Part shown: positions 570 to 18,755 of the stretch, piece by piece
How the letters are laid out: each line of letters begins with the position of its first letter
Position numbering within the stretch: position 1 is the stretch's first letter
Origin: Nanobdellota archaeon
Lineage (GTDB): Archaea > Nanobdellota > Nanobdellia > Tiddalikarchaeales > Tiddalikarchaeaceae
DNA: 64,000 bases
Assembly (NCBI GenBank): GCA_016931175.1
Contig: JAFGFH010000014.1
Location: 4,553 to 68,552 of the forward strand
Direction: 5' to 3'
Position numbers and translations under genes: made by a program
The notes under the pieces: generated by a model
Told to the model about the DNA's origin: nothing
What the model saw: only the letters and a program-made list of their open reading frames with translations
The model's database searches: none

Positions 570-831
570 TAATTAATTCGGAAAAATTTGTTTTTTAAAA
601 AAATTTTGGAAAAAAGAGAAAAAAATAAGACAAGAAAGACGAGGTTAATTAATCCTCTTCATCATTCATGTCTTGTTCATCTTCTTCGTCGTCATCCCAT
701 GACTCTGGTTCTTCTGAATCCTTCTCGTCATCATCCCATTCGTCTTCTGAATCAAACTTCATATCAATTAAACCCTCACTGATTTTAATTAAAGATTGTT
801 TAAACCTTATATTTAAAAATGTTGTGAAGAA

Positions 832-904
832 TGGGCCCGGCCGGATTTGAACCGGCGACATTCGCCTTGTAAGGGCGACGTCATAACCTCTAGACCACGG
901 GCCC
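832..904 (-). tRNA. tRNA-Val (anticodon TAC)
   Basis: Minus-strand cloverleaf GGGCCCG/CGGGCCC acceptor, D-arm GTCT..TGAC, anticodon stem TCGCC/GGCGA with loop CTTACAA, T-arm CGCCG GTTCAAA TCCGG, discriminator A. CCA not encoded. Confidence 0.85.
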
Positions 905-950
905 AGTATAGGAATTAATAGAAAAGGAGTCTTTTAAAAAGTTTATCCGT

Positions 951-2735: not shown

Positions 2736-5312
2736 TTAAGTAATTAAAACAATTATTTGGTTTATAAAATTAACTAATAATTCAAAGAGGGAGACTTCGT
2801 CAAAGTAGTAAATTCCTTTACTATCCTCTTCTGTTGGCACAACTACCACACTGAATTGTTCAACAAGGTAATCCTCTGGGTTGTTAACATTATTCATTGT
2901 CAAAGTGAAGCTTATCTCTCCGCTTATAACGGGGTAAACGTCAATGTAAGTAACGAAGTCTGATAATGGAGGAACTGTTACAGTTAAAGTATTTGACTCT
3001 GACACTGTGAAGCGGGCGTAGCCGTTATCATAATTCAAAACCAGATTATAAGTTTGGAACTCGTTCAAAGGATTATTTATTGTGAAATTTATGGTTCCAG
3101 AATAAGTGTTGCCTGAAACTAAGAGTCCTGGAGGCAGTTCAACACTAACCTCGCTCGGCGTGTAATAACTCCTTGCCCAAGTATTATTAGATAAACAGTA
3201 ATAAGCGCCTTTAACAATTCCTGTAGCAACGTTGGTATCAACTCCTCCAGCATCACTAACCTGGTCGTTGCAGTCAAATAATTGCCCGCTTGAACAGTAC
3301 AAACTATTACTAATGTTCCCGCTGCTCATTGCAAAACCATTATAACAGCAGCTGCTTTGCCCGAGCCAGTCATCACTAGTCCCGTTGTTCCCGCAGCAAT
3401 AAGGACTCTCACCTGTGTTGTAATTTGGAATCCAAGACCAAGTCGTTGACGCGTTCACGCATAAACTGTAAGTATTCTCAGGATAAGAAGAGCAGTCAAT
3501 ATCAGGGGTTTCACAATACATGCCATAATCCTCCAAGCAGACTCCATCTATTAAACCGCAGTAAATTATTGAACCATTAAAGCAGGCGCCTGAACTATTA
3601 AAGAAAGTATCAAAGGCACCGTCATCACCGCAGCACGCAGCTATCAAATCACCGCTCCTGCCGCTGTTCCATGAAAAATCTAGTGCATCAAGATAAAAAT
3701 CACTATCCTGGTAGTATGATATGAAGTTCCAATTATCCAAATCAGTGCATGTGCCGTAAAAGCCCAGGTTGCTTCCAATTAATACATTATCTTTGTAAAC
3801 ACTCCATGACGAAGCACAGTCATAAATTACTTTATAATAATGCCATAATCCGTCTTTCTGATTCTTTGATTCCAATGTCTTAACCACACCATCATAGTAA
3901 AAGAGTTGGGAACTGCTCCAGTATAATCTAAGATTTCCTCCTCCTGAACCAGAAACCCATAGCCTGTTTTCACCAGAACCTCCTGGCATATTCTTCATCC
4001 AGAAATCAAACGTTCCAGACGCCTGGTTCTGGGTAGTAACACTGACTCCGAAATCACCATTTGTTGCACTCGTATGAAGCATGTGATAAACCTTTTCATG
4101 ACCATCCATTTGTTCAACAACTTCATTAGTTCCGTAATCAGTTCCATAAAGAACCCATCCTGAAGCTATACCTTCACCATTATTATCATAAGTGAATGAA
4201 TAAGTTGCAGGATAATTTGAGTTGTTAAACCAAGTATAGGAATAATCCTCACATAGTGTTTGATTAAAATCTAAAGGATGGAATGTTGCATATCCCTGAT
4301 AGCAGAAACTATTAGTTGTGCTTATACTATTATTATAAAAATTATCATACGCACCGTCATCACCGCAGCAGGATGCATTCGTTCCCGTTGTTGTTCCATA
4401 AAACCAGTCATAACCGTAAATAGTGCAAAGATTTTCACTGTCATCTAATCCATTAATGTAATACTCTGCGTTGTAGCAGAAACTTCCAGTATTCAAAGTT
4501 CCGTTGTAGAAAGTGTCATAAACGCTGTCATCACCGCAGCAAGAAGGAACAGTGTTGTTCGCGTTCAAAGTATTCCAGTCTTTATTCACTGCATCAATCC
4601 ATAAGTAATGGTTGGATGACGCGGAGGATATGACTGCTCCAGTTCCAAATAATTGATTCGTGGCTCCCAGAGTGCCCCAGTCACCGTACAAATTGCACGT
4701 TACTGGACTATTATCATCAAAGGTTACTTCAAAGGTTGAACTCGTGTTGTCAAATTCTACATTAATGTAGTGCCACTGGTTTGCGATTACTGTTCCTACT
4801 AGGGTCATGCCTGCGCCTGCGCCCTCAGCGCACGCAATATCTGACGTGATTATTATTGCTCCCAGGCTCGCAGTCCCGAATGCTAGAACAGGGCTCGCAC
4901 CTGCTGCTCCATTAGATAATAATTCTGCAATTCCGAAGGCGTTGCCAGGGTCTGCCATCCTAAACCAGAAACTCCAATTGCCTTTGGCCTGATTAAAATT
5001 AGCCGTTGCGGACAAGTATTTCTCATTATCAGGGTCAGCATCATTATCCCAGAACTCGTAAACCTTAGCGTGCCCGTCAACTTCATCAACTACGTAACCG
5101 TAACCAGGGTCCGCGCTGCCCCATAGCATGAAACCAGTCGGATTAATCGTGCCATTAGGGTAATCAAAGGATTCAGTAGCATTATAGTGAGAGTTGTTAA
5201 TCCAGTCAAAACCGCTGGACGTGCAAGCAGAAGCAGAAGTATCTTCAGCGAATGTTGCAAAACAAGGGCTAATAAGGATTATAAATATAAAGAAATACTT
5301 CAACCTCCCCAT
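2736..5312 (-). CDS. Secreted cysteine-rich surface protein with two ConA/LamG-like lectin-like domains and four CCGDDGAYD-type repeats
   Basis: ORF track gives 2736..5372. Start chosen at the internal Met (MGRLKYFFIFIILISPCFATFA signal peptide), which also avoids overlap with the structured RNA at 5346-5620. Repeats SCCGDDSVYDTFYN, SCCGDDGAYDNFYN, ACCGDDGAFDTFFN, YCCGNNGTSDDW. Two similar roughly 200 aa domains each containing DGH(A/E)KVY. Confidence 0.65.
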   Translation of the reverse strand: MGRLKYFFIFIILISPCFATFAEDTSASACTSSGFDWINNSHYNATESFDYPNGTINPTGFMLWGSADPGYGYVVDEVDGHAKVYEFWDNDADPDNEKYLSATANFNQAKGNWSFWFRMADPGNAFGIAELLSNGAAGASPVLAFGTASLGAIIITSDIACAEGAGAGMTLVGTVIANQWHYINVEFDNTSSTFEVTFDDNSPVTCNLYGDWGTLGATNQLFGTGAVISSASSNHYLWIDAVNKDWNTLNANNTVPSCCGDDSVYDTFYNGTLNTGSFCYNAEYYINGLDDSENLCTIYGYDWFYGTTTGTNASCCGDDGAYDNFYNNSISTTNSFCYQGYATFHPLDFNQTLCEDYSYTWFNNSNYPATYSFTYDNNGEGIASGWVLYGTDYGTNEVVEQMDGHEKVYHMLHTSATNGDFGVSVTTQNQASGTFDFWMKNMPGGSGENRLWVSGSGGGNLRLYWSSSQLFYYDGVVKTLESKNQKDGLWHYYKVIYDCASSWSVYKDNVLIGSNLGFYGTCTDLDNWNFISYYQDSDFYLDALDFSWNSGRSGDLIAACCGDDGAFDTFFNSSGACFNGSIIYCGLIDGVCLEDYGMYCETPDIDCSSYPENTYSLCVNASTTWSWIPNYNTGESPYCCGNNGTSDDWLGQSSCCYNGFAMSSGNISNSLYCSSGQLFDCNDQVSDAGGVDTNVATGIVKGAYYCLSNNTWARSYYTPSEVSVELPPGLLVSGNTYSGTINFTINNPLNEFQTYNLVLNYDNGYARFTVSESNTLTVTVPPLSDFVTYIDVYPVISGEISFTLTMNNVNNPEDYLVEQFSVVVVPTEEDSKGIYYFDEVSLFELLVNFINQIIVLIT

Positions 5313-5345
5313 ATTATTAATAAGAAGTGTAGCGGTTTTAAAAAA

Positions 5346-5620
5346 TGTAGTGGAGGGAGCTCCTAAGCACAACCATGCATCCCAGTGAACTTAACCAAAC
5401 ACTTTGCTCCACCCTGCTACCTCACGAACACCGAAGAGGATAACTTATAGCTGCTCCCGTCAAGGCCTGACTCTTTCATTAACATCAAGGTCCCGTGAGA
5501 CAAGGCTTCGACGCGCGGTGTAAGGGGTTCTCTAAGGTGCGAAGCCACACTCAGGTATTCAGCTCTGCCAGCAACTTGCAGCGAGGGGTTTCGTTAAAAC
5601 CCAGCCTATCCCTCCAAAAA
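5346..5620 (-). ncRNA. Candidate signal recognition particle RNA (7S/SRP RNA)
   Basis: Non-coding island of about 270 nt, visibly GC-richer than its surroundings. Terminal helix GGAGGGA (5352-5358) pairs with TCCCTCC (5609-5615), as in archaeal SRP RNA helix 1. The minus strand carries GUCAGGCC-UUGAC-GGGAGCAGC, resembling the helix 8 apex CAGGCCC-GGAA-GGGAGCAA. Several internal hairpins, e.g. GGGUUU-CGUUA-AAACCC. Strand and exact ends uncertain. Confidence 0.45.
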
Positions 5621-7602: not shown

Positions 7603-8751
7603 TTAAAGCTCTATTAAATTAACCTGTTTGCTTTTGGCTTTGATATTGTTAGATACTATGTTTGAAACTCCTTTCTCTTCTGCAATAGAAACTAATTCCT
7701 TGTCAACAACGCCGTCCACAACTATTGAAACTATGTTATCTGAGCTGTCTGTTAATGTGTTAACTATTTCTGAAGCTGGAAGTTTTCCCTTAATGTTCAT
7801 GTTTTCATCCAACAAGTAAGCTCCTCTTGTTCCGAACAAGTCATTAAGAAGCTCTTTGAACTTATTAGCCTCTCCTTTAACCTCTTTATGAACTTTTTTG
7901 GAGGATGACATCATCTTGCCTCTTGTCTTCTTTCCAAAAAACTCGCTTGCTTTCATCCTTGAACGAAGACATTTGTGAATCTCTTTGCTGGTTAATTCTT
8001 CAACCTCTTTGCCGTCAGGCGCAACTGCTATGTATTCCAAGTTGCCTAGGTTCATCACTTTCTGGGCAATTAATTTCCCTCCCCTGTCGCCGTCAACAAA
8101 CAAGGTACAAACCTTAGTGTCAAGAATTTTTTTAACAGATTTCGGAACGTTTACTCCGTTAACGGATAATAAACCGCCGAAGCGGTTCTTCAGCATGTTA
8201 ACTACATCAGCTCTTCCTTCAACAAGGATTACCTCCTCTGCTGATTCAATATCGTTTGAAGCAGCTAATTTGTCAGGCCCGTACTCTATCAAGTTTGCAG
8301 CCCTCACGCTTTTCTTAACAGTGCTCATTATTTCTTGTGAATCTGTTGATTCCAAATTTAGTTTTTTAAGAAGATTCTTTGCCCTGTCCATTATCATCTC
8401 TCTTTTGTTAAAGCGAACGTCTTCAATCTCTTTCACATTAACCTCTGCTACGCAGGGTCCGATTCTTTCAATAGTTTCAAGGCTTGCAGCTATTATTGCC
8501 GTTTCAGCCTTTGCTAAACTGCTTGGAACTGTTATTGTTCCAGTAGTTTTATCATTCTTTGTTTCAACTTTAACATCTATTCTTCCTATCCTTCCGCTTT
8601 TCTGAAGCTCGCGAAGCTCTAACTCATCACCAAGCAAACCCTCTGTCTGCCCGAAGATGGCGCCTACGATATCATTCTTGTCTATACTTCCTTCAGCTTC
8701 AATCGCTGCGGTTATGATATACTTGGTTGAAACAGGATATATCTTACCCAT
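7603..8751 (-). CDS. dnaG: DNA primase DnaG (archaeal Toprim primase)
   Basis: N-terminus ...IITAAIEAEGSIDKNDIVGAIFGQTEGLLG is characteristic of archaeal DnaG. Toprim region VEGRADVVNM...DGDRGG. Confidence 0.85.
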   Translation of the reverse strand: MGKIYPVSTKYIITAAIEAEGSIDKNDIVGAIFGQTEGLLGDELELRELQKSGRIGRIDVKVETKNDKTTGTITVPSSLAKAETAIIAASLETIERIGPCVAEVNVKEIEDVRFNKREMIMDRAKNLLKKLNLESTDSQEIMSTVKKSVRAANLIEYGPDKLAASNDIESAEEVILVEGRADVVNMLKNRFGGLLSVNGVNVPKSVKKILDTKVCTLFVDGDRGGKLIAQKVMNLGNLEYIAVAPDGKEVEELTSKEIHKCLRSRMKASEFFGKKTRGKMMSSSKKVHKEVKGEANKFKELLNDLFGTRGAYLLDENMNIKGKLPASEIVNTLTDSSDNIVSIVVDGVVDKELVSIAEEKGVSNIVSNNIKAKSKQVNLIEL

Positions 8752-8782: not shown

Positions 8783-9127
8783 TCATAAACCTTCAACGTG
8801 GCTTATTTTCAACTCAGCAAGGTTTTTTTGAAAGGTTTCATCAACCTTCACACCTAACCTGCCAAACTCAGCTTTTAACTTAGAAAACAATTTTCGTCCT
8901 TCAGTGTCATTGTCCATTAATAGTATGACTCTATTATGCAAACTCCCTATCTGCTCAGCAAATGAATATAAAGGCTTGCGTGATAATTGAGTTACTTTTG
9001 TGATTCTAAGCTGTTTGAGCCTGGCAACGTCCTTTGCTCCTTCAACAATAACTAAAGTATCAGCGCGTATAATTTTTTCAATAAACTCTTCCTTTGTTAA
9101 AGGATTTTTGTTGCCCTTTACTAACAC
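8783..9127 (-). CDS. Small Toprim-domain protein (COG1658-like)
   Basis: VIVEGAKD...LLMDNDTEG Toprim acidic motifs in a 114 aa protein immediately upstream of dnaG. Confidence 0.65.
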   Translation of the reverse strand: MLVKGNKNPLTKEEFIEKIIRADTLVIVEGAKDVARLKQLRITKVTQLSRKPLYSFAEQIGSLHNRVILLMDNDTEGRKLFSKLKAEFGRLGVKVDETFQKNLAELKISHVEGL

Positions 9128-9432: not shown

Positions 9433-10035
9433 ATGACGATTATTCGTGAGTCTAATTTTTCAGATTCTTTGAACAATTTTAATGTTCTAGAAGCATTAGA
9501 CGAATTTGTTTACCAAGTGGCTGCAAAACCGGTTGAGTATCACAGAGAGTACTGCCTGGAGTCCTTTGTTGAGAGGGAATTGTTTGATTTAAACCTGCAG
9601 GAAATGTACAGAGATATTAAGATTCATTACATGATTAAAGAATACTTGTATTACAAAAAACTGTTAACAGAAGAAGTTAAGAACAATAAAAAGGGTTATC
9701 TTGATTTCATCTTAAGAATTGATGTTGAAAGTTACGAATCTGTTAAGGATTCGCTTGTTGGAGACTTCCTTGAGGTGAATCTTTTTGAACTTGAGGAGGT
9801 TATGAGCAAAGATTTCGAACCGGGTGATTTAATCAAGCAGGGATGGAAGTGCTTCATCTTTGACAAGGTTTTGTCAATTCTTGAGAAGCAGACTAAGAAT
9901 TCTATCTTAGAGGATGAGGTAGTTAAGTTCGTAGAGGATAATGGTTTGAAGAATGCTGAACCTCAGTCTATAGCTTGGACTTACGCGATTGAATCTTACA
10001 AGATTGAAGAGAAGAGGTGGAAGGTTTCAGGTTAA
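9433..10035 (+). CDS. Hypothetical protein (200 aa)
   Basis: ORF with acidic, protein-like composition. Confidence 0.45.
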   Translation: MTIIRESNFSDSLNNFNVLEALDEFVYQVAAKPVEYHREYCLESFVERELFDLNLQEMYRDIKIHYMIKEYLYYKKLLTEEVKNNKKGYLDFILRIDVESYESVKDSLVGDFLEVNLFELEEVMSKDFEPGDLIKQGWKCFIFDKVLSILEKQTKNSILEDEVVKFVEDNGLKNAEPQSIAWTYAIESYKIEEKRWKVSG

Positions 10036-11613: not shown

Positions 11614-12240
11614 ATGGATGAACAAGGAAAGAAGGGAACAACAACTGTTGGTATTATTACCAAGGAGGGTATAGTCTTGGCTGCTGATAAGCGCGCAAGT
11701 ATGGGTTACTTAGTGGCTGATAAGAACGCTGAGAAGATTCACTTGATTAATGATAATACTGTTATGACCTTTGCGGGCAGCGTGGCAGACAGCCAGATGC
11801 TGTTAAGGTATTTGAAGAGCCAGTTGGCTTTGTACAAGATTAAGAGGGAAAAAGAGGCTAGTGTTAATTCAATTGCTACGCTCTTATCGCATTACATATT
11901 CAGCAATGCTCACAGCTTCTCGCCTTTCATGATACAATTCATTATAGGCGGTGTTGACGAGTCAGGTTTTCACATGTTCAGTTTGGACATGCTAGGCTCT
12001 AAGATGGAGGCTGACACTTTTACTTCTACAGGTTCAGGAAGCCCAATAGCTTACGGTGTTTTGGAAGATAATTACAAAAAAGACTTAACTATTGAAGAGG
12101 CGTTGAAACTAGCAGTCAGGGCAGTAAATGCTGCAATTAAAAGAGATTTAGCAACAGGAAACGGTATAGACGTTGTTGTTATTGATAAAAAAGGCGCAAC
12201 ACGTGTTGAAAAAAAGAAGATAGAATCATTAATGAGCTAA
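11614..12240 (+). CDS. psmB: Proteasome beta subunit
   Basis: Propeptide then catalytic TTTVGI...; LAADKRAS and GSGS motifs. Confidence 0.9.
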   Translation: MDEQGKKGTTTVGIITKEGIVLAADKRASMGYLVADKNAEKIHLINDNTVMTFAGSVADSQMLLRYLKSQLALYKIKREKEASVNSIATLLSHYIFSNAHSFSPFMIQFIIGGVDESGFHMFSLDMLGSKMEADTFTSTGSGSPIAYGVLEDNYKKDLTIEEALKLAVRAVNAAIKRDLATGNGIDVVVIDKKGATRVEKKKIESLMS

Positions 12241-12254
12241 AAAAAATTATTTTT

Positions 12255-14156
12255 ATGAGTTCTAAAGACATCATAAACCAGATAAAAGAACTGATACCAA
12301 AGGATGCTGAAATAAGCGATTATGCTTTTGAAGGCGCGAACATCGTCCTTTACTCAAAGGATAAAAAATTTGCAATAAACAGCAAGGATTTAACAAGGGA
12401 CGTGGTTAATCAGATAAAGAAAAGAGTCAGCATTAGGCCTGACGAGGTTTTGTTAGAAGACCAAACTTTTTCGGAAAAGTTTATCCGAAGTATTGTTCCT
12501 GAAAACGCTGGTTTAGGAGACATCTGGTTTGATGAGAAGAGGAGTCTTGTAATACTTGAAGCTAAGAGACCAAAGCTCATACTTGCTAATGAGGCAGAGA
12601 TTATTAACAAAATTACTGAAAAGACCTGCTGGGTTCCTGTTGTAAGAAGATGCCCTGCAATTAACAGTGATATTATAAGAAATATCAGGCTGACTTTGTA
12701 CAAGAACAGCAAGTTCAGGAGAAAGTTTCTCAACAGTATTGGTGAAAAGGTTTATTCAAATTGGGAAAGGGATAATAAGTATTGGATTAGAGTAAGCTGT
12801 CTTGGCGGTTTCAGAGAGGTTGGAAGAAGTTGTTTGTTAATTCAAACACCTAATTCTCAAGTCTTGGTTGACTGCGGTATTAACATAGCAAGTGACGAGT
12901 TCGCTTACCCTCACTTGGAAGCGCCTGAGTTTGATCCTAAAAGGCTTGACGCAGTTATAATAAGCCACGCGCACCTTGACCATTGCGGTTTCCTGCCTTA
13001 CTTGTTCAAGTACGGTTATGAAGGCCCGGTTTATTGCAGTGAGCCTACAAGGGACATTATGACGTTAATGCAATTGGATTATATTGATATTGCAGAGAAA
13101 GAGAATAAGAAATTATTATATGACAGCAAGGATGTTAAGGAGATGGTTAATAGAACTGTTTGTCTTAATTTCGGTGAGGTTACTGACATAACTCCTGATT
13201 TCAGGCTGACACTGTTTAATGCTGGGCACATTCTTGGCAGCAGCATGGTTCACTTGAATATTGGAAATGGTTATCATAACTTGTTATACACTGGTGATTA
13301 TAAGTTCTCGCAGACTCAATTACTTGGACCTGCAGTATCGCATTTTCAAAGGGTTGAGACTTTAATAACTGAGAGCACTTACGGCGGGGCTAAGAATATT
13401 CAGCCTTCTAAGGAAGAGAGTGAGAACTTCTTGTCTAAGATTATTGAAGAGACTATAAAGAGGAGAGGGAAGGTTCTCATACCTGTTCTTGGTGTCGGCC
13501 GTGCGCAGGAGGTTATGATTCTTATAGAGAAAATGGTGAGGGAGGGTAAGATTCCTGCGAGTCCTGTTTACGTTGACGGTATGGTCTGGGACATTACTGC
13601 TATTCACACAACTTATCCTGAATATATGAATAAGGATGTTAGGAAACTAATATTCCAGGAAGGGCATAACCCTTTCCTTAATCCTATCTTTAAACAGCCT
13701 GGTTCGCAGAAGGAGAGGATGAAGATAATTGAAGAGGAAGGGCCTTGTGTTATACTAGCAACGAGTGGTATGCTTACTGGGGGTCCAAGCGTTTTCTACC
13801 TGGAGCAGTTAGCTGATAATCATAAGAATAGTTTAGTTTTTGTAAGTTATCAGGGAAAAGGCAGTCTTGGTAGAGTAATACAAAGAGGGGATAAAGAGGT
13901 TATTCTTGGCAGCAGCAACGGCAAGAGGGAAATGCTTCCTATAAAACTTGAAGTTTACACTATTGAAGGTTTGAGCGGTCACAGTGACAGAAACCAGTTA
14001 ATGAATTATATTAACAAGATTGTGCCGAGGCCTAAGAAGATAATAATAGACCACGGCGAGACTAGCAATTGTTTAGATTTAGCAAGCAGTATTTATAAAA
14101 GGTTTAAGATAGAAACTGTTGCGCCGAGAAACTTGGATTCTATAAGATTAGCATAA
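12255..14156 (+). CDS. aCPSF1 (KH + metallo-beta-lactamase + beta-CASP RNase; transcription termination factor)
   Basis: 633 aa. N-terminal KH region. HAHLDHCG metallo-beta-lactamase motif, beta-CASP region, and a C-terminal segment typical of archaeal CPSF1. Confidence 0.9.
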   Translation: MSSKDIINQIKELIPKDAEISDYAFEGANIVLYSKDKKFAINSKDLTRDVVNQIKKRVSIRPDEVLLEDQTFSEKFIRSIVPENAGLGDIWFDEKRSLVILEAKRPKLILANEAEIINKITEKTCWVPVVRRCPAINSDIIRNIRLTLYKNSKFRRKFLNSIGEKVYSNWERDNKYWIRVSCLGGFREVGRSCLLIQTPNSQVLVDCGINIASDEFAYPHLEAPEFDPKRLDAVIISHAHLDHCGFLPYLFKYGYEGPVYCSEPTRDIMTLMQLDYIDIAEKENKKLLYDSKDVKEMVNRTVCLNFGEVTDITPDFRLTLFNAGHILGSSMVHLNIGNGYHNLLYTGDYKFSQTQLLGPAVSHFQRVETLITESTYGGAKNIQPSKEESENFLSKIIEETIKRRGKVLIPVLGVGRAQEVMILIEKMVREGKIPASPVYVDGMVWDITAIHTTYPEYMNKDVRKLIFQEGHNPFLNPIFKQPGSQKERMKIIEEEGPCVILATSGMLTGGPSVFYLEQLADNHKNSLVFVSYQGKGSLGRVIQRGDKEVILGSSNGKREMLPIKLEVYTIEGLSGHSDRNQLMNYINKIVPRPKKIIIDHGETSNCLDLASSIYKRFKIETVAPRNLDSIRLA

Positions 14157-14190
14157 TTTATTAAAAACAAGAATTATATATGAATATAAT

Positions 14191-14667
14191 ATGGGTAAAG
14201 TCGCAAGAAGCCAGTTAAATATTAGTAATTTAAAGGTTGATATGAAAGGGCTTGTAGAAGCTGTTAAATCATCTCTTGAAGCATTGAATTACGACGTTGA
14301 CGACCCTAAGTATAAGTATCATGGGAAACCTGAAGAGATTAACGAGGTGCAGTCTAATGTTGTTGGGGAGAAAAAGGTTGATAATTATACTATGTTCAAG
14401 ATAGAGGTTGAGATTAACATCAGGAGTGCGAAGCCTTTTATTGAAAAAGGCAAGAAGTTAATAACTGGTGAGGGCAAGATTATATTAAGAAGTGATTTAA
14501 TATTCGATTATGATAATAAGTGGAGCAAGGATCCCATACTTCACTTCCTTAAAGGAGTTTATGAAAAATACATTTACAGGCAAACGATTAAAAATTTTGA
14601 AGTTGATGTATCTAATGAAATGTTCGGGGTCAGGGATGAGATTAAGTCCATTGTTAAGATGAGGTGA
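14191..14667 (+). CDS. Hypothetical protein, paralog A of a tandem pair
   Basis: 158 aa. Shares KY-H...IEV..I....LRSDL.FDYDNKW..DPIL.F motifs with the adjacent ORF. Confidence 0.55.
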   Translation: MGKVARSQLNISNLKVDMKGLVEAVKSSLEALNYDVDDPKYKYHGKPEEINEVQSNVVGEKKVDNYTMFKIEVEINIRSAKPFIEKGKKLITGEGKIILRSDLIFDYDNKWSKDPILHFLKGVYEKYIYRQTIKNFEVDVSNEMFGVRDEIKSIVKMR

Positions 14668-14676
14668 GATGAGAAA

Positions 14677-15180
14677 ATGCCGTCAATGTTCATACTGGGA
14701 AAGACAAGTATTGAATTAAATAATGTAATATTTAACTACGCTGATTTTTACAGGTTTATGAAGAAAACTTTGGAGGAGAGGGGTTATTTTATAGAGGAAA
14801 AAAAGTACTCGCATGCCCCAACAGGTGATAAGAGTTATGTTGATTTTTACTGGAAGTGTTTGAAAAACATAGACGATTACAGCAGGTTTATAATAGAGGT
14901 TGACACTAAGTTTTCTAACGTTGAACCCATTACTGTTCTGGTTAACAAGGTTAAACAAACCAAGGATAAAGGGGACGGTTCTATTAAGTTAAGGGCTTCG
15001 CTTTCAACAGATTATGACACTAAATGGGAGGAGAATCCTATAATAAACTTTGTTAAAACTATTTTTGAAAACATCTTTGAAAAATCCAGCGTTAACCAGT
15101 ACAAGAAGGATTTGAAGAATGAATTGTACGAGTTAGAGAATGAGGTAAAGAGTTATTTTAACGTTCAGAGAATGATATGA
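14677..15180 (+). CDS. Hypothetical protein, paralog B of a tandem pair
   Basis: 167 aa. LRASLSTDYDTKWEENPIINF aligns with LRSDLIFDYDNKWSKDPILHF of the upstream ORF. Confidence 0.55.
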   Translation: MPSMFILGKTSIELNNVIFNYADFYRFMKKTLEERGYFIEEKKYSHAPTGDKSYVDFYWKCLKNIDDYSRFIIEVDTKFSNVEPITVLVNKVKQTKDKGDGSIKLRASLSTDYDTKWEENPIINFVKTIFENIFEKSSVNQYKKDLKNELYELENEVKSYFNVQRMI

Positions 15181-15181
15181 A

Positions 15182-17017
15182 ATGAAGAGTTTTTTTGTTA
15201 CAACACCTATTTACTACGTTAATGGGGAGCCGCACCTTGGAACTATTTATACAACAATAGCTGCTGATATAATAGCTAGGTATAAAAGATTCAATAATAA
15301 GAAGGTTTTTTTCCTGACAGGAACTGATGAGCACGGGGAAAAGGTTGAGCAAAGCGCTCAAAAAAAAGGAGTTAGTGTTAAGAAGTACGTTGATGAGATG
15401 AGCTCAGCATTTAAAGAAGCGTTCAAAAAAATGAACATCTCATATGACAGGTTCATAAGAACCACTGATGAAGACCATATTAAAACTGCAACTGCTTTTT
15501 ACAAGCAGGTTTTTAAGAAAGGCGATATTTACAAAGGCGAATACGAGGGATGGTATTGTGTTTCATGCGAGACTTTCTGGACAGAAAAGGAGTTATTGAA
15601 TAATACCTGCCCTGACTGCGGTAAAAAGGTTAAGATATTAAAAGAGGAGACTTTATTCTTTAAGCAGTCAAAGTATCAGAAGAAACTGATTGAATATATT
15701 AACAAACATCCTGATTTTATCCAGCCCAAGATTAGGAGGAATGAGATAATTAGTTTTCTTAAAAAACCGTTGAAGGATTTAAGTATTTCAAGAACAAGTT
15801 TCACTTGGGGAATCCCTGTTCCAGGCGAGAAGAAGCACGTAATATACGTCTGGTTTGATGCTTTGATTAATTACCTGACTGCTTCGGGTTATCCTAAGAA
15901 GGGTTATACTAATATCTGGCCTCCTGATATCCAGTTCATGGGAAAGGAGATAACACGCTTCCATTGCATAACTTGGCCTATAATGCTTATGAGTGCGGGT
16001 TTAGAGCTGCCCAGGAAGGTGTTCGGCCACGGCTGGTGGACTCTTAATGCTAAAAAGATGAGCAAGAGCATTGGGAATGTGATATGCCCTGACAAGTTGT
16101 GCGACAAGTATAATGTTCCTGTTGACTGCGTGAGGTATGTTTTGTTTAAGCAGATGCCTTTCGGAAGCGATGGGGATTTTAATGAGTCAATCTTTGTTGA
16201 AAAGGTTAACAACGAATTGGGAAGCGAGTTAGGCAACTTAGTTTCAAGGAGTCTTGCACTATTTCAAAGGTATAATAATAGTGTTGTCCCAAAAGGAGAG
16301 GTTGATAAAAAATTGCAGGAATCTTATAAGAAAGTGCTGGAATCTTACCATAAATTCATGGAGGATTTGGATTATTATAATGCCCTTAACTCTGCTTTTG
16401 ATTTTGTCCGCGCTGCTAACAAGTACATAGCTGATGAGGAGCCTTGGAAGCTTACCAGGAAAGAGGATAATGACAAGCTTATGAGTGTATTGTTTAATCT
16501 GGCTCAAAGTCTGAACATTATAAGCGCTTTAATATATCCTTTCATGCCCGAGACTAGCGGCAAGATTGACGAGCAGTTAAGTGTTAAAAAAGATTATAAT
16601 AAAGGTTTCAAGAATGTTAAACCCGGAGCTAAGACTGTAAAAAGAGACATATTGTTTCCTAAGATTGAGAAAATAGTTGAGGAGAAACCTGCTCAAGAAC
16701 TTGAGCACGCGAGCTTTGAAGACTTCAAAAAGCTTGACATCAGGACAGGAACAATAATTGAAGTCAGTGAATTAACTGACAAATTGTACCGCATCAAGGT
16801 TAAGGCTGACAAGGAGAGAACCGTCGTGTCAGGCATCAGGAAGTATTATTCCAAGAAGGAATTATTGAATAAGAAAGTAGTCATATTAATTAATTTAGAG
16901 CCTAAGAAGATAATGGGTGTGTTAAGCGAGGGCATGATACTCGCAGCCGAGAAGAACAACAGAGTAGTATTGTTAAGTCCTGACAAGGACATCTACGATG
17001 ATGCTAGAGTATTGTGA
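15182..17017 (+). CDS. metG: Methionyl-tRNA synthetase with C-terminal EMAP/tRNA-binding domain
   Basis: HLGT (HIGH-type) motif, KMSKS, zinc knuckles CVSC...CPDCG, and a C-terminal OB-like tRNA-binding domain. Confidence 0.9.
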   Translation: MKSFFVTTPIYYVNGEPHLGTIYTTIAADIIARYKRFNNKKVFFLTGTDEHGEKVEQSAQKKGVSVKKYVDEMSSAFKEAFKKMNISYDRFIRTTDEDHIKTATAFYKQVFKKGDIYKGEYEGWYCVSCETFWTEKELLNNTCPDCGKKVKILKEETLFFKQSKYQKKLIEYINKHPDFIQPKIRRNEIISFLKKPLKDLSISRTSFTWGIPVPGEKKHVIYVWFDALINYLTASGYPKKGYTNIWPPDIQFMGKEITRFHCITWPIMLMSAGLELPRKVFGHGWWTLNAKKMSKSIGNVICPDKLCDKYNVPVDCVRYVLFKQMPFGSDGDFNESIFVEKVNNELGSELGNLVSRSLALFQRYNNSVVPKGEVDKKLQESYKKVLESYHKFMEDLDYYNALNSAFDFVRAANKYIADEEPWKLTRKEDNDKLMSVLFNLAQSLNIISALIYPFMPETSGKIDEQLSVKKDYNKGFKNVKPGAKTVKRDILFPKIEKIVEEKPAQELEHASFEDFKKLDIRTGTIIEVSELTDKLYRIKVKADKERTVVSGIRKYYSKKELLNKKVVILINLEPKKIMGVLSEGMILAAEKNNRVVLLSPDKDIYDDARVL

Positions 17018-17050: not shown

Positions 17051-17124
17051 TGGGCCAGACCGGATTTGAACCGGCGACCACCACGTTATCAGCGTGGCGC
17101 CCCACCAGACTAGGCCACTGGCCC
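17051..17124 (-). tRNA. tRNA-Ile (anticodon GAT)
   Basis: Minus strand GGGCCAG/CTGGCCC acceptor, anticodon stem CCACG/CGTGG with loop CTGATAA, T-loop TTCAAAT, discriminator A. Flanked by a 9-bp inverted repeat GTGATTAGT (17042-17050) / ACTAATCAC (17127-17135). Confidence 0.85.
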
Positions 17125-17180: not shown

Positions 17181-18755
17181 TCATGAAATATCCACTGAAG
17201 GTGTGTCTCCTCCAGTAACTGCACCAATAGTGTTAAGTCCTAAACCATATTCTCCTAGGACATCAGTTAATCCTTCTGCAACGCTTCTGCCCGTGTCGCC
17301 GAAGTCGTTCAAGTCAACGCCTGTGAACCTGAAAACTAAGTCAAAAACTGGCTGAAGGTCTCCTGCTTGTGCTGATTGCACCGCGCTCATTGTGGTTGAA
17401 GCTAACTCTTCAACGTCTAAGCTAACAGAGGTAACATAACCCCATAAGAAGAATATTACGCATATTGCTGCGACTACGTAAGCAATTATTGTGCCAAGAA
17501 GAGGAATTGCTTGGACGTAAAAAGAGATGAGTATTGCACCTATTGTTCCAAGTATTGCGATTATTAATAGAACTATTGGTATCCACAACTCTGCTGCGTG
17601 CAGCGGGCCTCCTCCGAAAAACGCCCAAATGCTTGGAACAAAACCGAATCCTATTATTAAAGCCCACGCGATAATAGTTGCTTTAATGTCAAGCTTGCCT
17701 CTCGGTATTTTTCCTTCAATTTTTTTAAGCTTGTTTTTTAAATCATCAACATCTTTTGAACCACCGCTTCCTGTTGGGCTTACTGTTGGGAGTACTTTTT
17801 GTATTTTTGTAATAACTATAGTATTGGGCGCACTGGCTACTGGAGTCACTGCAGAAGGAAGATTTTTTGAAGCAGTTCCTGCAGCTGTTTTAATTGCTGC
17901 ACTCGCCATTCCAGCTGTTGCTGCTCCAGCAGCAGTTTGAAATCCAGTGCTCGCGGCAGCAGCGCCAATTGCTGCTCCTGCAACTGCGCCGCCAATTGCA
18001 GCACCAGCTGCTCCTACACCAGCACCAGGGGAAGATTTTCTTTTAAACTGCTCATTAACTAATTCATTCCTTCTTTTTCTAAGATTTAATAAAGAATCTA
18101 GCATGACTTGATTCCCTTTAGCGCTCATTTCATTTATTCTCTCAAATTTTCCAGTGCGCTTTTGCTCATCACCAATTTCTAATAATTCTTTTTCAATTTC
18201 ATTTAAACTCATATCCTTAGCAGGCTTATACCTTTTTTCATAAGAATAAAGCTCTCCCTCTGTATTAAACTTGTTTTGCAAACCCTTACTAAAATTATTA
18301 ATGCTGGTTTCTAAGTTTTGGATAAGAACTGCGTTTTTTGTCGGAGTATCACATGCTCTTTGTAACTCATTTAACTTATTCATAACATTTTCCAAGGCTT
18401 TTTTAGAATCAGTGGTTAATTCTATACGCAGTATTATATTTAATATATCATTAATGTTATCGCTTATACGTGATAATGTGAGAAAATAAGGTCTTAAAAC
18501 TGCAGTATATTCATTATTTAATATGTTTGGGTTGTCCTTCTTTAATTCATTAAATTCAATCCTTAATGGATTTACTCTGGATATCATAATTATGCTGTTT
18601 TGCAAAAGCCTTTCAACCTGATTAATAGTATTAACCTTTTTTTCTGAAATTATTTTGTTTAAGTTATTAAAAGCATCATTGGTGGCTTCCGTGGTTTCAA
18701 GAATTGTTGCTTTAAGATTTTCTAATTTTGTTTCAAGAACATCTTCATTAACCAT
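17181..18755 (-). CDS. Membrane protein with N-terminal coiled-coil region, central Gly/Ala-rich low-complexity linker and C-terminal transmembrane helices
   Basis: 524 aa. AGVGAAGAAIGGAVAGAAIGAAAAS linker encoded by a local GC-rich patch at 17.9-18.0 kb. Hydrophobic helices in the C-terminal third. Confidence 0.55.
   Translation of the reverse strand: MVNEDVLETKLENLKATILETTEATNDAFNNLNKIISEKKVNTINQVERLLQNSIIMISRVNPLRIEFNELKKDNPNILNNEYTAVLRPYFLTLSRISDNINDILNIILRIELTTDSKKALENVMNKLNELQRACDTPTKNAVLIQNLETSINNFSKGLQNKFNTEGELYSYEKRYKPAKDMSLNEIEKELLEIGDEQKRTGKFERINEMSAKGNQVMLDSLLNLRKRRNELVNEQFKRKSSPGAGVGAAGAAIGGAVAGAAIGAAAASTGFQTAAGAATAGMASAAIKTAAGTASKNLPSAVTPVASAPNTIVITKIQKVLPTVSPTGSGGSKDVDDLKNKLKKIEGKIPRGKLDIKATIIAWALIIGFGFVPSIWAFFGGGPLHAAELWIPIVLLIIAILGTIGAILISFYVQAIPLLGTIIAYVVAAICVIFFLWGYVTSVSLDVEELASTTMSAVQSAQAGDLQPVFDLVFRFTGVDLNDFGDTGRSVAEGLTDVLGEYGLGLNTIGAVTGGDTPSVDIS

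What the first reader, a model, noticed from the sequence alone, without database searches (positions are those of the whole stretch)
14191..15180. Tandem paralogous small proteins inserted between aCPSF1 and metG
Two adjacent same-strand ORFs (158 and 167 aa, 9-nt spacer) share an identical architecture: KY-x-H near residue 40, a FKIEVEINIR/FIIEVDTKF beta-strand motif, and a conserved C-terminal block LR(S/A)(D/S)L.(F/T)DYD(N/T)KW..(D/N)PI(L/I).F. They are divergent (roughly 25-30 percent identity), so the duplication is old and both copies are maintained, suggesting a heterodimer. They are embedded in a tight cluster of information-processing genes (proteasome beta, aCPSF1, MetRS), all on the + strand with 1-35 nt spacers, implying co-transcription. 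No family recognised from sequence.
Basis: seen in the sequence. Interest (0 to 1): 0.5.

Follow-up and report, generated by a model that had tools for sequence, protein, structure and literature searches.

The report
Uncatalogued DPANN tandem small-protein pair
Two adjacent genes after the archaeal transcription-termination nuclease gene encode diverged copies of a small protein from a large, unnamed family of tiny symbiotic (DPANN) archaea, and they probably work together as a complex whose function has not been tested.

Summary
ORF-A (14191-14667, 158 aa) and ORF-B (14677-15180, 167 aa) are real, 9 nt apart and paralogous (27% identity over the full length, E 4e-20). Both show the codon-position pattern of purifying selection.

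They match no Pfam, NCBIfam, PHROG, PADLOC or PDB sequence. An exhaustive profile search nevertheless finds 1,419 cluster representatives, nearly all 155-175 aa. Every inspected contig looks like a DPANN/Nanoarchaeota genome.

Family genes lie in tandem twos or threes in 14 loci, and the 5' copy is always the more divergent. Recurrent neighbours are psmB-aCPSF1 upstream, an orthologous CBS-pair protein directly upstream, and archaeal DnaG downstream.

The pair is therefore an old, conserved module rather than an insertion. My best reading, which is inference, is a non-enzymatic heteromeric adaptor tied to RNA/information processing. A conserved TATA-like element after the aCPSF1 stop suggests the pair has its own promoter. 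I rate the interest as moderate.

The parts
14191..14667 (+). ORF-A (158 aa). This is the more divergent, upstream paralogue of the family, NCBI hypothetical protein JW791_02625.
   Evidence: ORF list and sequence. It is 100% identical to P0001. Family HMM E about 1e-43. AF2 model has pLDDT 88.8 and pTM 0.80, with topology b1-a1-b2-b3-b4-b5-a2. Orthologues show a purifying-selection pattern.
14677..15180 (+). ORF-B (167 aa). This is the better-conserved, downstream paralogue, NCBI hypothetical protein JW791_02630.
   Evidence: It is 100% identical to P0004. Family HMM E about 1e-54. AF2 model has pLDDT 83.2 and pTM 0.74, with the same topology as A.
14506..14523 (+). The DYDNKW motif of ORF-A (residues 106-111), in the loop between strand 5 and the C-terminal helix.
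   Evidence: Invariant or nearly invariant columns in A1. D is found in 222 of 226 members and W in 196 of 226.
15010..15027 (+). The DYDTKW motif of ORF-B (residues 112-117). Together with Y37, E41, K63 and D66-D67-Y68 it forms a conserved acidic/aromatic cluster at one pole of the sheet.
   Evidence: Conservation table mapped on the AF2 secondary structure. The placement at one pole is inferred from strand polarity, not from coordinates.
14938..14979 (+). The tip of the b4-b5 hairpin of ORF-B (residues 88-101). It is Lys-rich and variable in length (family consensus about V-E-K-D-G-K-K-K-K-x-N-K-G). The equivalent region in ORF-A is 14440-14475.
14157..14167 (+). A TATA-like element (TTTATTAAAAA) immediately after the aCPSF1 stop codon and 24-34 nt before the ORF-A ATG. 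It is a candidate promoter for a leaderless A-B(-metG) transcript.
   Evidence: The same element sits at the same place in L001, L002 and L011. No transcript data were available, so this is inference.
14661..14667 (+). A Shine-Dalgarno-like GAGGTGA that overlaps the ORF-A stop codon, 9 nt before the ORF-B ATG. It would allow translational coupling of A and B.
   Evidence: Sequence. A GAGGT is similarly placed in L011. The 16S rRNA 3' end of this organism was not seen.
12255..14156 (+). The aCPSF1/FttA gene, encoding the transcription-termination and 3'-end cleavage nuclease. It is the upstream neighbour.
   Evidence: Pfam KH_TffA, Lactamase_B, Beta-Casp and RMMBL. The same neighbour is found in L001, L002, L011, L016, L003 and L004/5.
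11614..12240 (+). The proteasome beta subunit gene (psmB), first gene of the same-strand row.
   Evidence: Pfam Proteasome, E 1.8e-57.
15182..17017 (+). The methionyl-tRNA synthetase gene with a C-terminal tRNA_bind domain. It starts 1 nt after the ORF-B stop.
   Evidence: Pfam tRNA-synt_1g, Anticodon_3 and tRNA_bind. It is a neighbour only in the window's own clade.
7603..8751 (-). The archaeal DnaG (Toprim) gene, 5.4 kb upstream on the opposite strand. In other lineages DnaG lies directly downstream of the family genes.
   Evidence: NCBIfam NF003108 'DNA primase DnaG' equivalog at 408 bits (cut-off 300). The same model is hit above cut-off for the downstream neighbours in L003, L009, L022 and L023.

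Best explanation
ORF-A and ORF-B are two genuine, co-expressed paralogues of a large, uncatalogued, stand-alone protein family of about 165 aa. In every inspected case the family sits on a DPANN (Nanoarchaeota/Woesearchaeota-type) contig.

Each protein is a soluble two-layer alpha+beta module. It has a five-stranded antiparallel sheet with beta-alpha-beta4 topology (KA1/TBP-like), followed by a roughly 45-residue C-terminal helix. One pole carries a conserved acidic/aromatic cluster: Y37, E41, K63, DDY66-68 and the D112-Y-x-x-K-W motif. The opposite pole is a Lys-rich beta-hairpin.

The most likely mechanism is inferred, not shown. The conserved copy (B) and the diverged copy (A) would assemble into a non-enzymatic hetero-oligomer. 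The strongly conserved, hydrophobic first part of the C-terminal helix is modelled with low confidence and may be an interface. The complex would act as an adaptor or RNA-binding accessory in information processing. Candidate partners are the recurrently linked genes: aCPSF1/FttA, a CBS-pair nucleotide-sensor protein, and DnaG.

Shown: the genes, the paralogy, the family size, the fold class, the tandem multiplicity and the synteny. Inferred: the heteromer, RNA or partner binding, and the functional link to aCPSF1, CBS or DnaG.
For: Genes and paralogy. Purifying selection on both copies.

Family size and uniform length: 1,419 representatives at E<=1e-3 and 551 at E<=1e-10. No fusions apart from two odd N-terminal extensions.

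Tandem multiplicity: two copies in the window, L001, L002, L004, L009, L010, L011, L016, L018, L022, L023 and L026, and three copies in L013 and L014. In all 14 loci the profile score rises from the 5' to the 3' copy.

Coupling signals: 9-nt spacer plus an SD-like GAGGTGA.

Synteny in deeply diverged lineages (family identity 20-35%):
- psmB-aCPSF1 upstream in the window clade, L003 and L004/5.
- An orthologous CBS-pair gene directly upstream in L003, L013, L021 and L026, and within 1.5 kb in L009, L024 and L029.
- A DnaG equivalog directly downstream in L003, L009, L022 and L023, and 5.4 kb away in the window.
- Other neighbours are fibrillarin/Nop5, RpoF/DUF655, RtcA, aaRS genes and aRF1.

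Interface candidate: the conserved hydrophobic helix segment 121-136 has the lowest pLDDT (59-64) in the monomer model of B.
Against: - No multimer prediction or experiment was available, so a heteromer is not demonstrated.
- Some lineages carry a single copy at the locus (L003, L006-8), so a homo-oligomer must also be viable.
- Net charge is about zero and the median pI is 7.7, which is not typical of a dedicated nucleic-acid binder.
- DPANN genomes are dominated by information-processing genes, so such neighbours are partly expected by chance. The contexts also vary: a Lon-domain protein, a Dph5-like methylase, a GTPase and DTD.
- The CBS partner is absent from this 64-kb window.
- The conserved acidic cluster could equally be a metal or catalytic site.
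Confidence: 0.35

Rival explanations
1. The two proteins are independent or redundant paralogues. Each would form its own homo-oligomer (or act as a monomer), and tandem copies would persist through subfunctionalisation or dosage rather than an obligate A-B complex.
For: Single-copy loci exist (L003, L006-L008). Three-copy loci exist (L013, L014), so the stoichiometry is not fixed. Almost all copies outside the window clade, whether upstream or downstream, fit the B-type profile better than the A-type profile. Orthology of 'A' across lineages is therefore not established, and duplications may be recurrent.
Against: The 5' copy is the more divergent one in 14 of 14 multi-copy loci. Tight spacing and an SD-like coupling signal are present. 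Both copies are retained across genomes that have diverged to 73% aCPSF1 identity. Asymmetric divergence of one copy is the usual signature of a homomer turning into a heteromer.
Confidence: 0.2
2. They are helix-grip (START/Bet v 1/SRPBCC-like) carriers of small hydrophobic ligands or lipids. One possible role is handling host-derived lipids, which DPANN archaea are generally thought unable to synthesise (the author's background knowledge, not tested here).
Against: The models have only five strands and two helices. Classical helix-grip folds have 6-7 strands enclosing a cavity (author's knowledge). None of 41 members tested matches any SRPBCC/START/Bet v 1 Pfam model. Foldseek alignments to these proteins have TM-scores of 0.13-0.30. 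The conserved residues are charged or aromatic and sit at a pole rather than lining a pocket (the placement is inferred). The genomic context is information processing, not membrane or lipid genes.
Confidence: 0.12
3. They are chaperones or regulators of proteolysis, for example a proteasome- or Lon-associated assembly factor or inhibitor. This would be analogous to the paralogous PAC3/PAC4-type heterodimeric assembly chaperones.
Confidence: 0.07
4. They are a mobile or defence-type two-gene cassette (toxin-antitoxin-like), or spurious ORFs, that landed between housekeeping genes.
For: The region holds two small adjacent genes of unknown function. Its G+C (0.33-0.34) is slightly below that of the neighbours (0.38-0.42).
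Against: The two proteins are paralogues of each other rather than an unrelated toxin and antidote. There are no PADLOC or PHROG hits and no relatives in IMG/VR within the reach of the patterns used. The position is stably syntenic across deeply diverged genomes. Both genes show purifying selection and give confident folds.
Confidence: 0.02

Closest known systems
KA1 (kinase-associated-1) domains of MARK/BRSK/Chk1 kinases, METTL16 (VCR) and TUT1, and the related AMPK/SNF1 alpha-subunit C-terminal domain
   Different: There is no detectable sequence relationship: no Pfam hit at E<=10, nor at E<=1 in 39 members. KA1 is a eukaryotic C-terminal domain of larger enzymes. These are free-standing archaeal proteins with much longer strands, an extra roughly 45-residue helix and their own DYxxKW motif. 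They are encoded as tandem paralogues.
TATA-box-binding protein (TBP) and the TBP-like fold
   Same: A single TBP repeat has the order S1-H1-S2-S3-S4-S5-H2, the same as these proteins (author's knowledge of the TBP fold; topology). Two paralogous modules could in principle mimic the pseudo-symmetric two-repeat saddle.
SRPBCC / START / Bet v 1 helix-grip ligand-binding proteins
   Different: These proteins have fewer strands, show no sequence-profile match and give poor Foldseek TM-scores (0.13-0.30). Their context is information-processing genes.
DPANN-specific 'dark matter' gene clusters listed by Makarova, Wolf and Koonin 2019 (for example cls.004634 'double PepSY-like' and cls.004340 'alpha-helical, house-keeping context')
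   Same: Both are DPANN-restricted, uncharacterised and typically found in a house-keeping gene context (PMC6393860).
   Different: Identity with any of those clusters could not be checked because no sequences were at hand. The family is alpha+beta rather than all-alpha, and no PepSY signal was seen in 39 members.

Membership tests
Any curated protein family (Pfam-A 2025, NCBIfam 20.0, PHROGs v4, PADLOC-DB 2.0) | A profile-HMM match at or near the family threshold | tested here: not met
   A and B match no family at E<=10 in Pfam or NCBIfam. Thirty-nine diverse members give only scattered single-member noise hits at E<=1. There are no PADLOC hits, and PHROG hits are no better than E 0.05.
Proteins with a solved structure (PDB) | Sequence or profile similarity to a PDB chain | tested here: not met
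   The profiles of A1 and A2 give best E-values of 0.16 and 0.59, to unrelated chains.
KA1 domain | A compact beta-alpha-beta4-alpha fold of about 100 residues | tested here: met
KA1 domain | Sequence-profile membership (Pfam KA1) and location at the C-terminus of a kinase, methyltransferase or TUTase | tested here: not met
   There is no Pfam hit. All but two of the 150 listed members are free-standing proteins of about 165 aa.
KA1 domain | Binding of acidic phospholipid or structured RNA through basic patches | not testable with these tools
   Only a Lys-rich b4-b5 hairpin was seen. No coordinates or binding assay were available.
TBP (TATA-box-binding protein) | Two tandem S1-H1-S2-S3-S4-S5-H2 repeats in one polypeptide, with a TBP profile match | tested here: not met
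SRPBCC / START / Bet v 1 | A helix-grip fold enclosing a hydrophobic ligand cavity | tested here: inconclusive
SRPBCC / START / Bet v 1 | A sequence-profile match to a family of the clan | tested here: not met
   None was found in 41 members tested.
Type II toxin-antitoxin or defence cassette | Two unrelated small proteins (toxin plus antidote), patchy mobile distribution and hits to defence models | tested here: not met
   The proteins are paralogues of each other. Their position is stably syntenic. There are no PADLOC hits.
Obligate heteromer of tandem paralogues (as a mode of action) | Physical A-B association | not testable with these tools
The support is indirect: fixed order and polarity in 14 of 14 loci and coupling signals.

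The most novel reading that the evidence does not exclude
The family could be a DPANN-specific regulatory or adaptor subunit of the archaeal RNA 3'-end machinery. A heteromer of KA1-like modules would dock, through its conserved acidic/aromatic pole, onto aCPSF1/FttA and/or DnaG. With the co-encoded CBS-pair sensor it would couple transcription termination or RNA decay to the cell's adenine-nucleotide status. Such an AMPK-core-like 'KA1 scaffold + CBS sensor' arrangement has, to my knowledge, not been described in archaea.
Probability: 0.12. Interest if true: 0.75.

Novelty: new variant of a known kind. Interest (0 to 1): 0.45.

Why it matters
DPANN archaea make up a large part of archaeal diversity, and much of their reduced proteome has no assigned function.

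This family has more than 1,400 sequence clusters, a confident fold, two or three copies per locus and stable linkage to aCPSF1/FttA, a CBS sensor protein and DnaG. Yet it is absent from Pfam, NCBIfam and the PDB.

Defining it would add a well-delimited new family to the catalogues. It would also give a concrete, testable candidate for a lineage-specific accessory of archaeal transcription termination or RNA processing. If it turns out to be a lipid carrier instead, it would be a candidate for how these symbionts handle host lipids.

The pair is small and soluble, so it should be easy to express, which makes the question experimentally cheap.

Tried and rejected
- **Sequence libraries.** Pfam, NCBIfam, PHROGs, PADLOC and PDB sequences gave no match for the two proteins, for 39 diverse members, or for the family profiles.
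- **Foldseek.** Searches against the PDB and BFVD gave nothing significant; the best E-value was 1.3-1.5e-3 and TM-scores stayed below 0.4. The AlphaFold-database libraries were not available, so named AFDB relatives could not be sought.
- **Locus scans.** The search for related loci with the diverse alignments A2, A3 and A5 failed because no stretch was conserved enough. With the narrow alignment A1 only 4 genome loci and 7 metagenome loci were recovered, and none in IMG/VR.
- **Possible third copies.** I checked the same-sized neighbours L004:6576-7079 and L023:300-803. hhalign probability was about 0.1%, so they are unrelated.
- **Orthology of upstream copies.** I tested whether upstream copies in other lineages are orthologues of window ORF-A, using A-type and B-type profiles. 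Almost all copies fit the B-type profile better, so one ancient duplication versus recurrent duplications remains unresolved. The NJ tree groups copies by position only within two separate groups.
- **Source names and organism labels.** Two cluster look-ups returned only 'hypothetical protein' or no name. One 1.7-kb contig is labelled Gammaproteobacteria, which is probably a mis-binned contig.
- **Literature.** Searches on DPANN dark matter, aCPSF1 neighbourhoods and Nanobdellota core genes found no description of this family.

Full report
**1. Observation**

The two ORFs are exactly as described. ORF-A is 14191-14667 (158 aa) and ORF-B is 14677-15180 (167 aa), both on the + strand and 9 nt apart. 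BLASTP of A against B gives 27% identity, 54% positives and E 4e-20 over practically the whole length, so the paralogy is real.

The quoted strand motif and the C-terminal block are present. Across 226 family members the DYxxKW..P..F block holds the most conserved columns (D in 222 of 226, W in 196 of 226).

Pfam confirms the flanking genes: proteasome beta (11614-12240), aCPSF1/FttA (12255-14156) and MetRS with a tRNA_bind domain (15182-17017). The spacers are 14, 34, 9 and 1 nt. The family HMM finds only these two copies in the 64-kb window.

The source is a Nanoarchaeota MAG. The proteins are 100% identical to the hypothetical proteins JW791_02625 and JW791_02630.

**2. Real genes under constraint**

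I compared orthologues in four related contigs: the window, L001 (Ca. Tiddalikarchaeum anstoanum), L002 and L011.

| Gene | Amino-acid identity between genomes | Nucleotide identity, codon position 2 / 1 / 3 |
|---|---|---|
| ORF-A | 37-53% | 62-75% / 50-68% / 34-44% |
| ORF-B | 50-66% | 74-85% / 63-75% / 40-50% |
| aCPSF1, psmB | 72-76% | comparable pattern |

The pattern of position 2 above 1, and both far above 3, is the signature of purifying selection on a protein. Both copies are therefore maintained, and A evolves faster than B.

**3. A large, uncatalogued family**

- Word-seeded searches found only 3 relatives of A and 9 of B.
- An exhaustive profile search over 1.84 billion cluster representatives found 1,419 proteins at E<=1e-3 and 551 at E<=1e-10. 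Nearly all are 155-175 aa.
- No Pfam or NCBIfam model matches A or B at E<=10.
- Thirty-nine diverse members give only scattered single-member noise in Pfam.
- PHROGs, PADLOC and PDB sequences give nothing.
- Source names are 'hypothetical protein' or missing.
- All longer contigs inspected carry archaeal house-keeping genes. Where they are labelled, they are Nanoarchaeota, Woesearchaeota, Tiddalikarchaeum or unclassified 'archaeon' MAGs.
- No relative was found in IMG/VR within the reach of the patterns used.
- Literature searches did not turn up a description. Makarova et al. 2019 list a few DPANN-specific dark-matter clusters (PMC6393860), but identity with any of them could not be checked.

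**4. Fold**

AlphaFold2 with a 31-sequence alignment gives confident models: B has pLDDT 83.2 and pTM 0.74, and A has pLDDT 88.8 and pTM 0.80. Both share the topology b1-a1-b2-b3-b4-b5 followed by a roughly 45-residue C-terminal helix, which is kinked in A.

- Assorted two-layer alpha+beta domains.

Foldseek against the PDB and BFVD found nothing significant, and the AFDB libraries were unavailable. The fold class is therefore known (beta-alpha-beta4-alpha, KA1/TBP-like), but no specific relative emerges.

**5. Conserved features**

I mapped conservation from 226 members onto the secondary structure.
- The strongly conserved polar and aromatic residues (B numbering) are Y37, E41, Y44, K63, D66, D67, Y68, D112, Y113, W117 and E118. 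They lie in the a1-b2, b3-b4 and b5-a2 connections. By strand polarity these all sit at the same pole of the sheet. This placement is inference, because coordinates are not returned.
- The opposite pole is the b4-b5 hairpin tip. It varies in length and is Lys-rich, with a consensus of about VEKDGKKKKxNKG.
- The first half of the C-terminal helix (121-136; F125, R127, Y130, D131, K132, K136) is highly conserved and hydrophobic, yet it has the lowest pLDDT (59-64 in B). This fits an interface that lacks its partner in a monomer model.
- Net charge is near zero and the median pI is 7.7.
- A-type proteins systematically have N instead of the second D of the DDY motif.

**6. Tandem multiplicity**

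I scanned 30 fetched loci with a family HMM.
- Two adjacent same-strand copies: the window, L001/L012, L002, L004/5, L009, L010, L011/L015, L016, L018, L022, L023-25 and L026.
- Three copies: two Woesearchaeota MAG contigs, L013 and L014.
- One copy: L003 and L006-8.

In all 14 multi-copy loci the profile score rises from the 5' copy to the 3' copy, so the divergent copy always comes first. One caveat is that the profile may be biased towards B-like sequences.

Within the window's clade, the A orthologues and the B orthologues form separate clades, so that duplication predates the clade. Across the whole family, most copies fit the B-type profile better than the A-type profile. Whether there was one ancient duplication or several remains unresolved.

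In the window, an SD-like GAGGTGA overlaps the A stop codon 9 nt before the B ATG, which is consistent with translational coupling.

**7. Gene neighbourhood**

| Lineage or loci | Gene order around the family genes |
|---|---|
| Window clade | ProRS(-) psmB aCPSF1 A B MetRS |
| L004/5 (family identity only about 20-35%) | psmB-aCPSF1, then the pair |
| L003 (family identity only about 20-35%) | psmB-aCPSF1-(317-aa gene, opposite strand)-CBS-FAM-DnaG |

- An orthologous CBS-pair protein, some versions with a C-terminal CxxC...CxxC ribbon, lies directly upstream on the same strand in L003, L013, L021 and L026. It lies 1.3-1.5 kb upstream in L009, L024 and L029. The window has none.
- The Toprim genes directly downstream in L003, L009, L022 and L023 hit the archaeal DnaG equivalog above its cut-off. 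So does window 7603-8751 on the minus strand, 5.4 kb away.
- Other contexts are fibrillarin/Nop5 with RpoF-DUF655-S13-S4 (L013), RtcA, a Lon-domain protein, a Dph5-like methylase with TFE-alpha, an RsgA-like GTPase and DTD.
- A plausible ancestral string is psmB-aCPSF1-CBS-FAM-FAM-DnaG.

The pair is therefore not an insertion between aCPSF1 and metG.

A TATA-like TTTATTAA/TTATAAAA element directly follows the aCPSF1 stop, 24-34 nt before the A start codon, and is kept in the window, L001, L002 and L011. The pair, together with metG, may therefore have its own promoter and a leaderless mRNA. Tight spacing alone does not prove co-transcription with aCPSF1.

**8. Interpretation**

Shown: the genes, the paralogy, the family, the fold class, the tandem arrangement with a fixed polarity, and the recurrent linkage to aCPSF1, a CBS-pair protein and DnaG.

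Inferred (confidence about 0.35):
- A and B form a non-catalytic hetero-oligomer.
- The conserved pole and helix form protein-protein interfaces, and the Lys-rich hairpins contact RNA or another polyanion.
- The complex serves as an accessory of RNA and information processing.

The KA1 analogy is suggestive. KA1 modules bind U6 snRNA in METTL16 and TUT1 (PMC7229813). The KA1-like AMPK alpha C-terminal domain scaffolds a CBS-domain sensor subunit (author's knowledge). This is a resemblance in how the system might work, not a membership claim, because all sequence-membership tests failed.

Rivals:

| Rival reading | Confidence |
|---|---|
| Independent homo-oligomers | 0.2 |
| START-like ligand or lipid carriers | 0.12 |
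| Protease-linked chaperones | 0.07 |
| Mobile or TA cassette | 0.02 |

**9. Verdict**

The heterodimer is untested, the word 'inserted' is wrong, and co-transcription with aCPSF1 is uncertain.

This is a well-defined, abundant, uncatalogued DPANN protein family with a known fold class and an unknown function. I rate the interest as moderate (0.45).

Noticed in passing
window 14157-14167; L001 about 5448-5460; L002 about 3061-3070; L011 about 4965-4975: A TATA-like TTTATTAA/TTATAAAA element sits immediately after the aCPSF1 stop codon in four diverged genomes. It suggests an internal promoter and a leaderless transcript for the downstream genes.
   Followed up: partly
L003 5550-5996; L013 3314-3880; L021 172-741; L026 3-491; L009 4250-4666; L024 4060-4506; L029 2420-2842: An orthologous CBS-pair protein recurs next to the family genes; it is absent from the 64-kb window. 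The L013, L021 and L026 versions carry a C-terminal CxxC...CxxC zinc-ribbon-like tail.
   Followed up: partly
window 17181-18755 (-): A 524-aa ORF has no Pfam or NCBIfam match. It has a long Ala/Gly-rich low-complexity middle and a hydrophobic, probably membrane-spanning C-terminal part. It is convergent with metG.
   Followed up: no
window 17051-17124 (-) and 831-905 (-): tRNA-Ile(GAT) lies just downstream of metG on the opposite strand, and tRNA-Val(TAC) lies near the window start.
   Followed up: no
window 5355-5614 (-): An SRP RNA is best matched by the Rfam 'Bacteria_large_SRP' model (66.9 bits, gathering score 60) rather than an archaeal SRP model, although the genome is archaeal. Its 3' part overlaps the annotated start region of the 878-aa ORF 2736-5372.
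   Followed up: no
window 8783-9127 (-) and 7603-8751 (-): A small stand-alone Toprim protein (114 aa) lies next to archaeal DnaG. It resembles the PRK04017 hypothetical family but scores below its cut-off. The same pair is found in L001 and L011.
   Followed up: partly
window 9433-10035 (+): A 200-aa ORF has no family match. Its 3' end overlaps the 3' end of the convergent ProRS gene by 9 nt.
   Followed up: no
L011 5938-7473 and 7477-7797: In this relative the MetRS reading frame is split. The C-terminal tRNA-binding part is a separate ORF after an in-frame stop. This could be an assembly error or a genuinely split gene.
   Followed up: no
L022 69-490: A small RelE/ParE-like toxin-antitoxin-looking pair sits directly upstream of the family genes in this contig. 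It lies where other lineages have the CBS gene.
   Followed up: no
P0164: One family member on a 1.7-kb contig is labelled 'Gammaproteobacteria bacterium' in NCBI. This is probably a mis-binned DPANN contig.
   Followed up: no
L004 6576-7082; L023 300-806: These 168-aa ORFs adjacent to the family pair are the same size as family members but are unrelated (hhalign probability about 0.1%). They have no Pfam match.
   Followed up: yes
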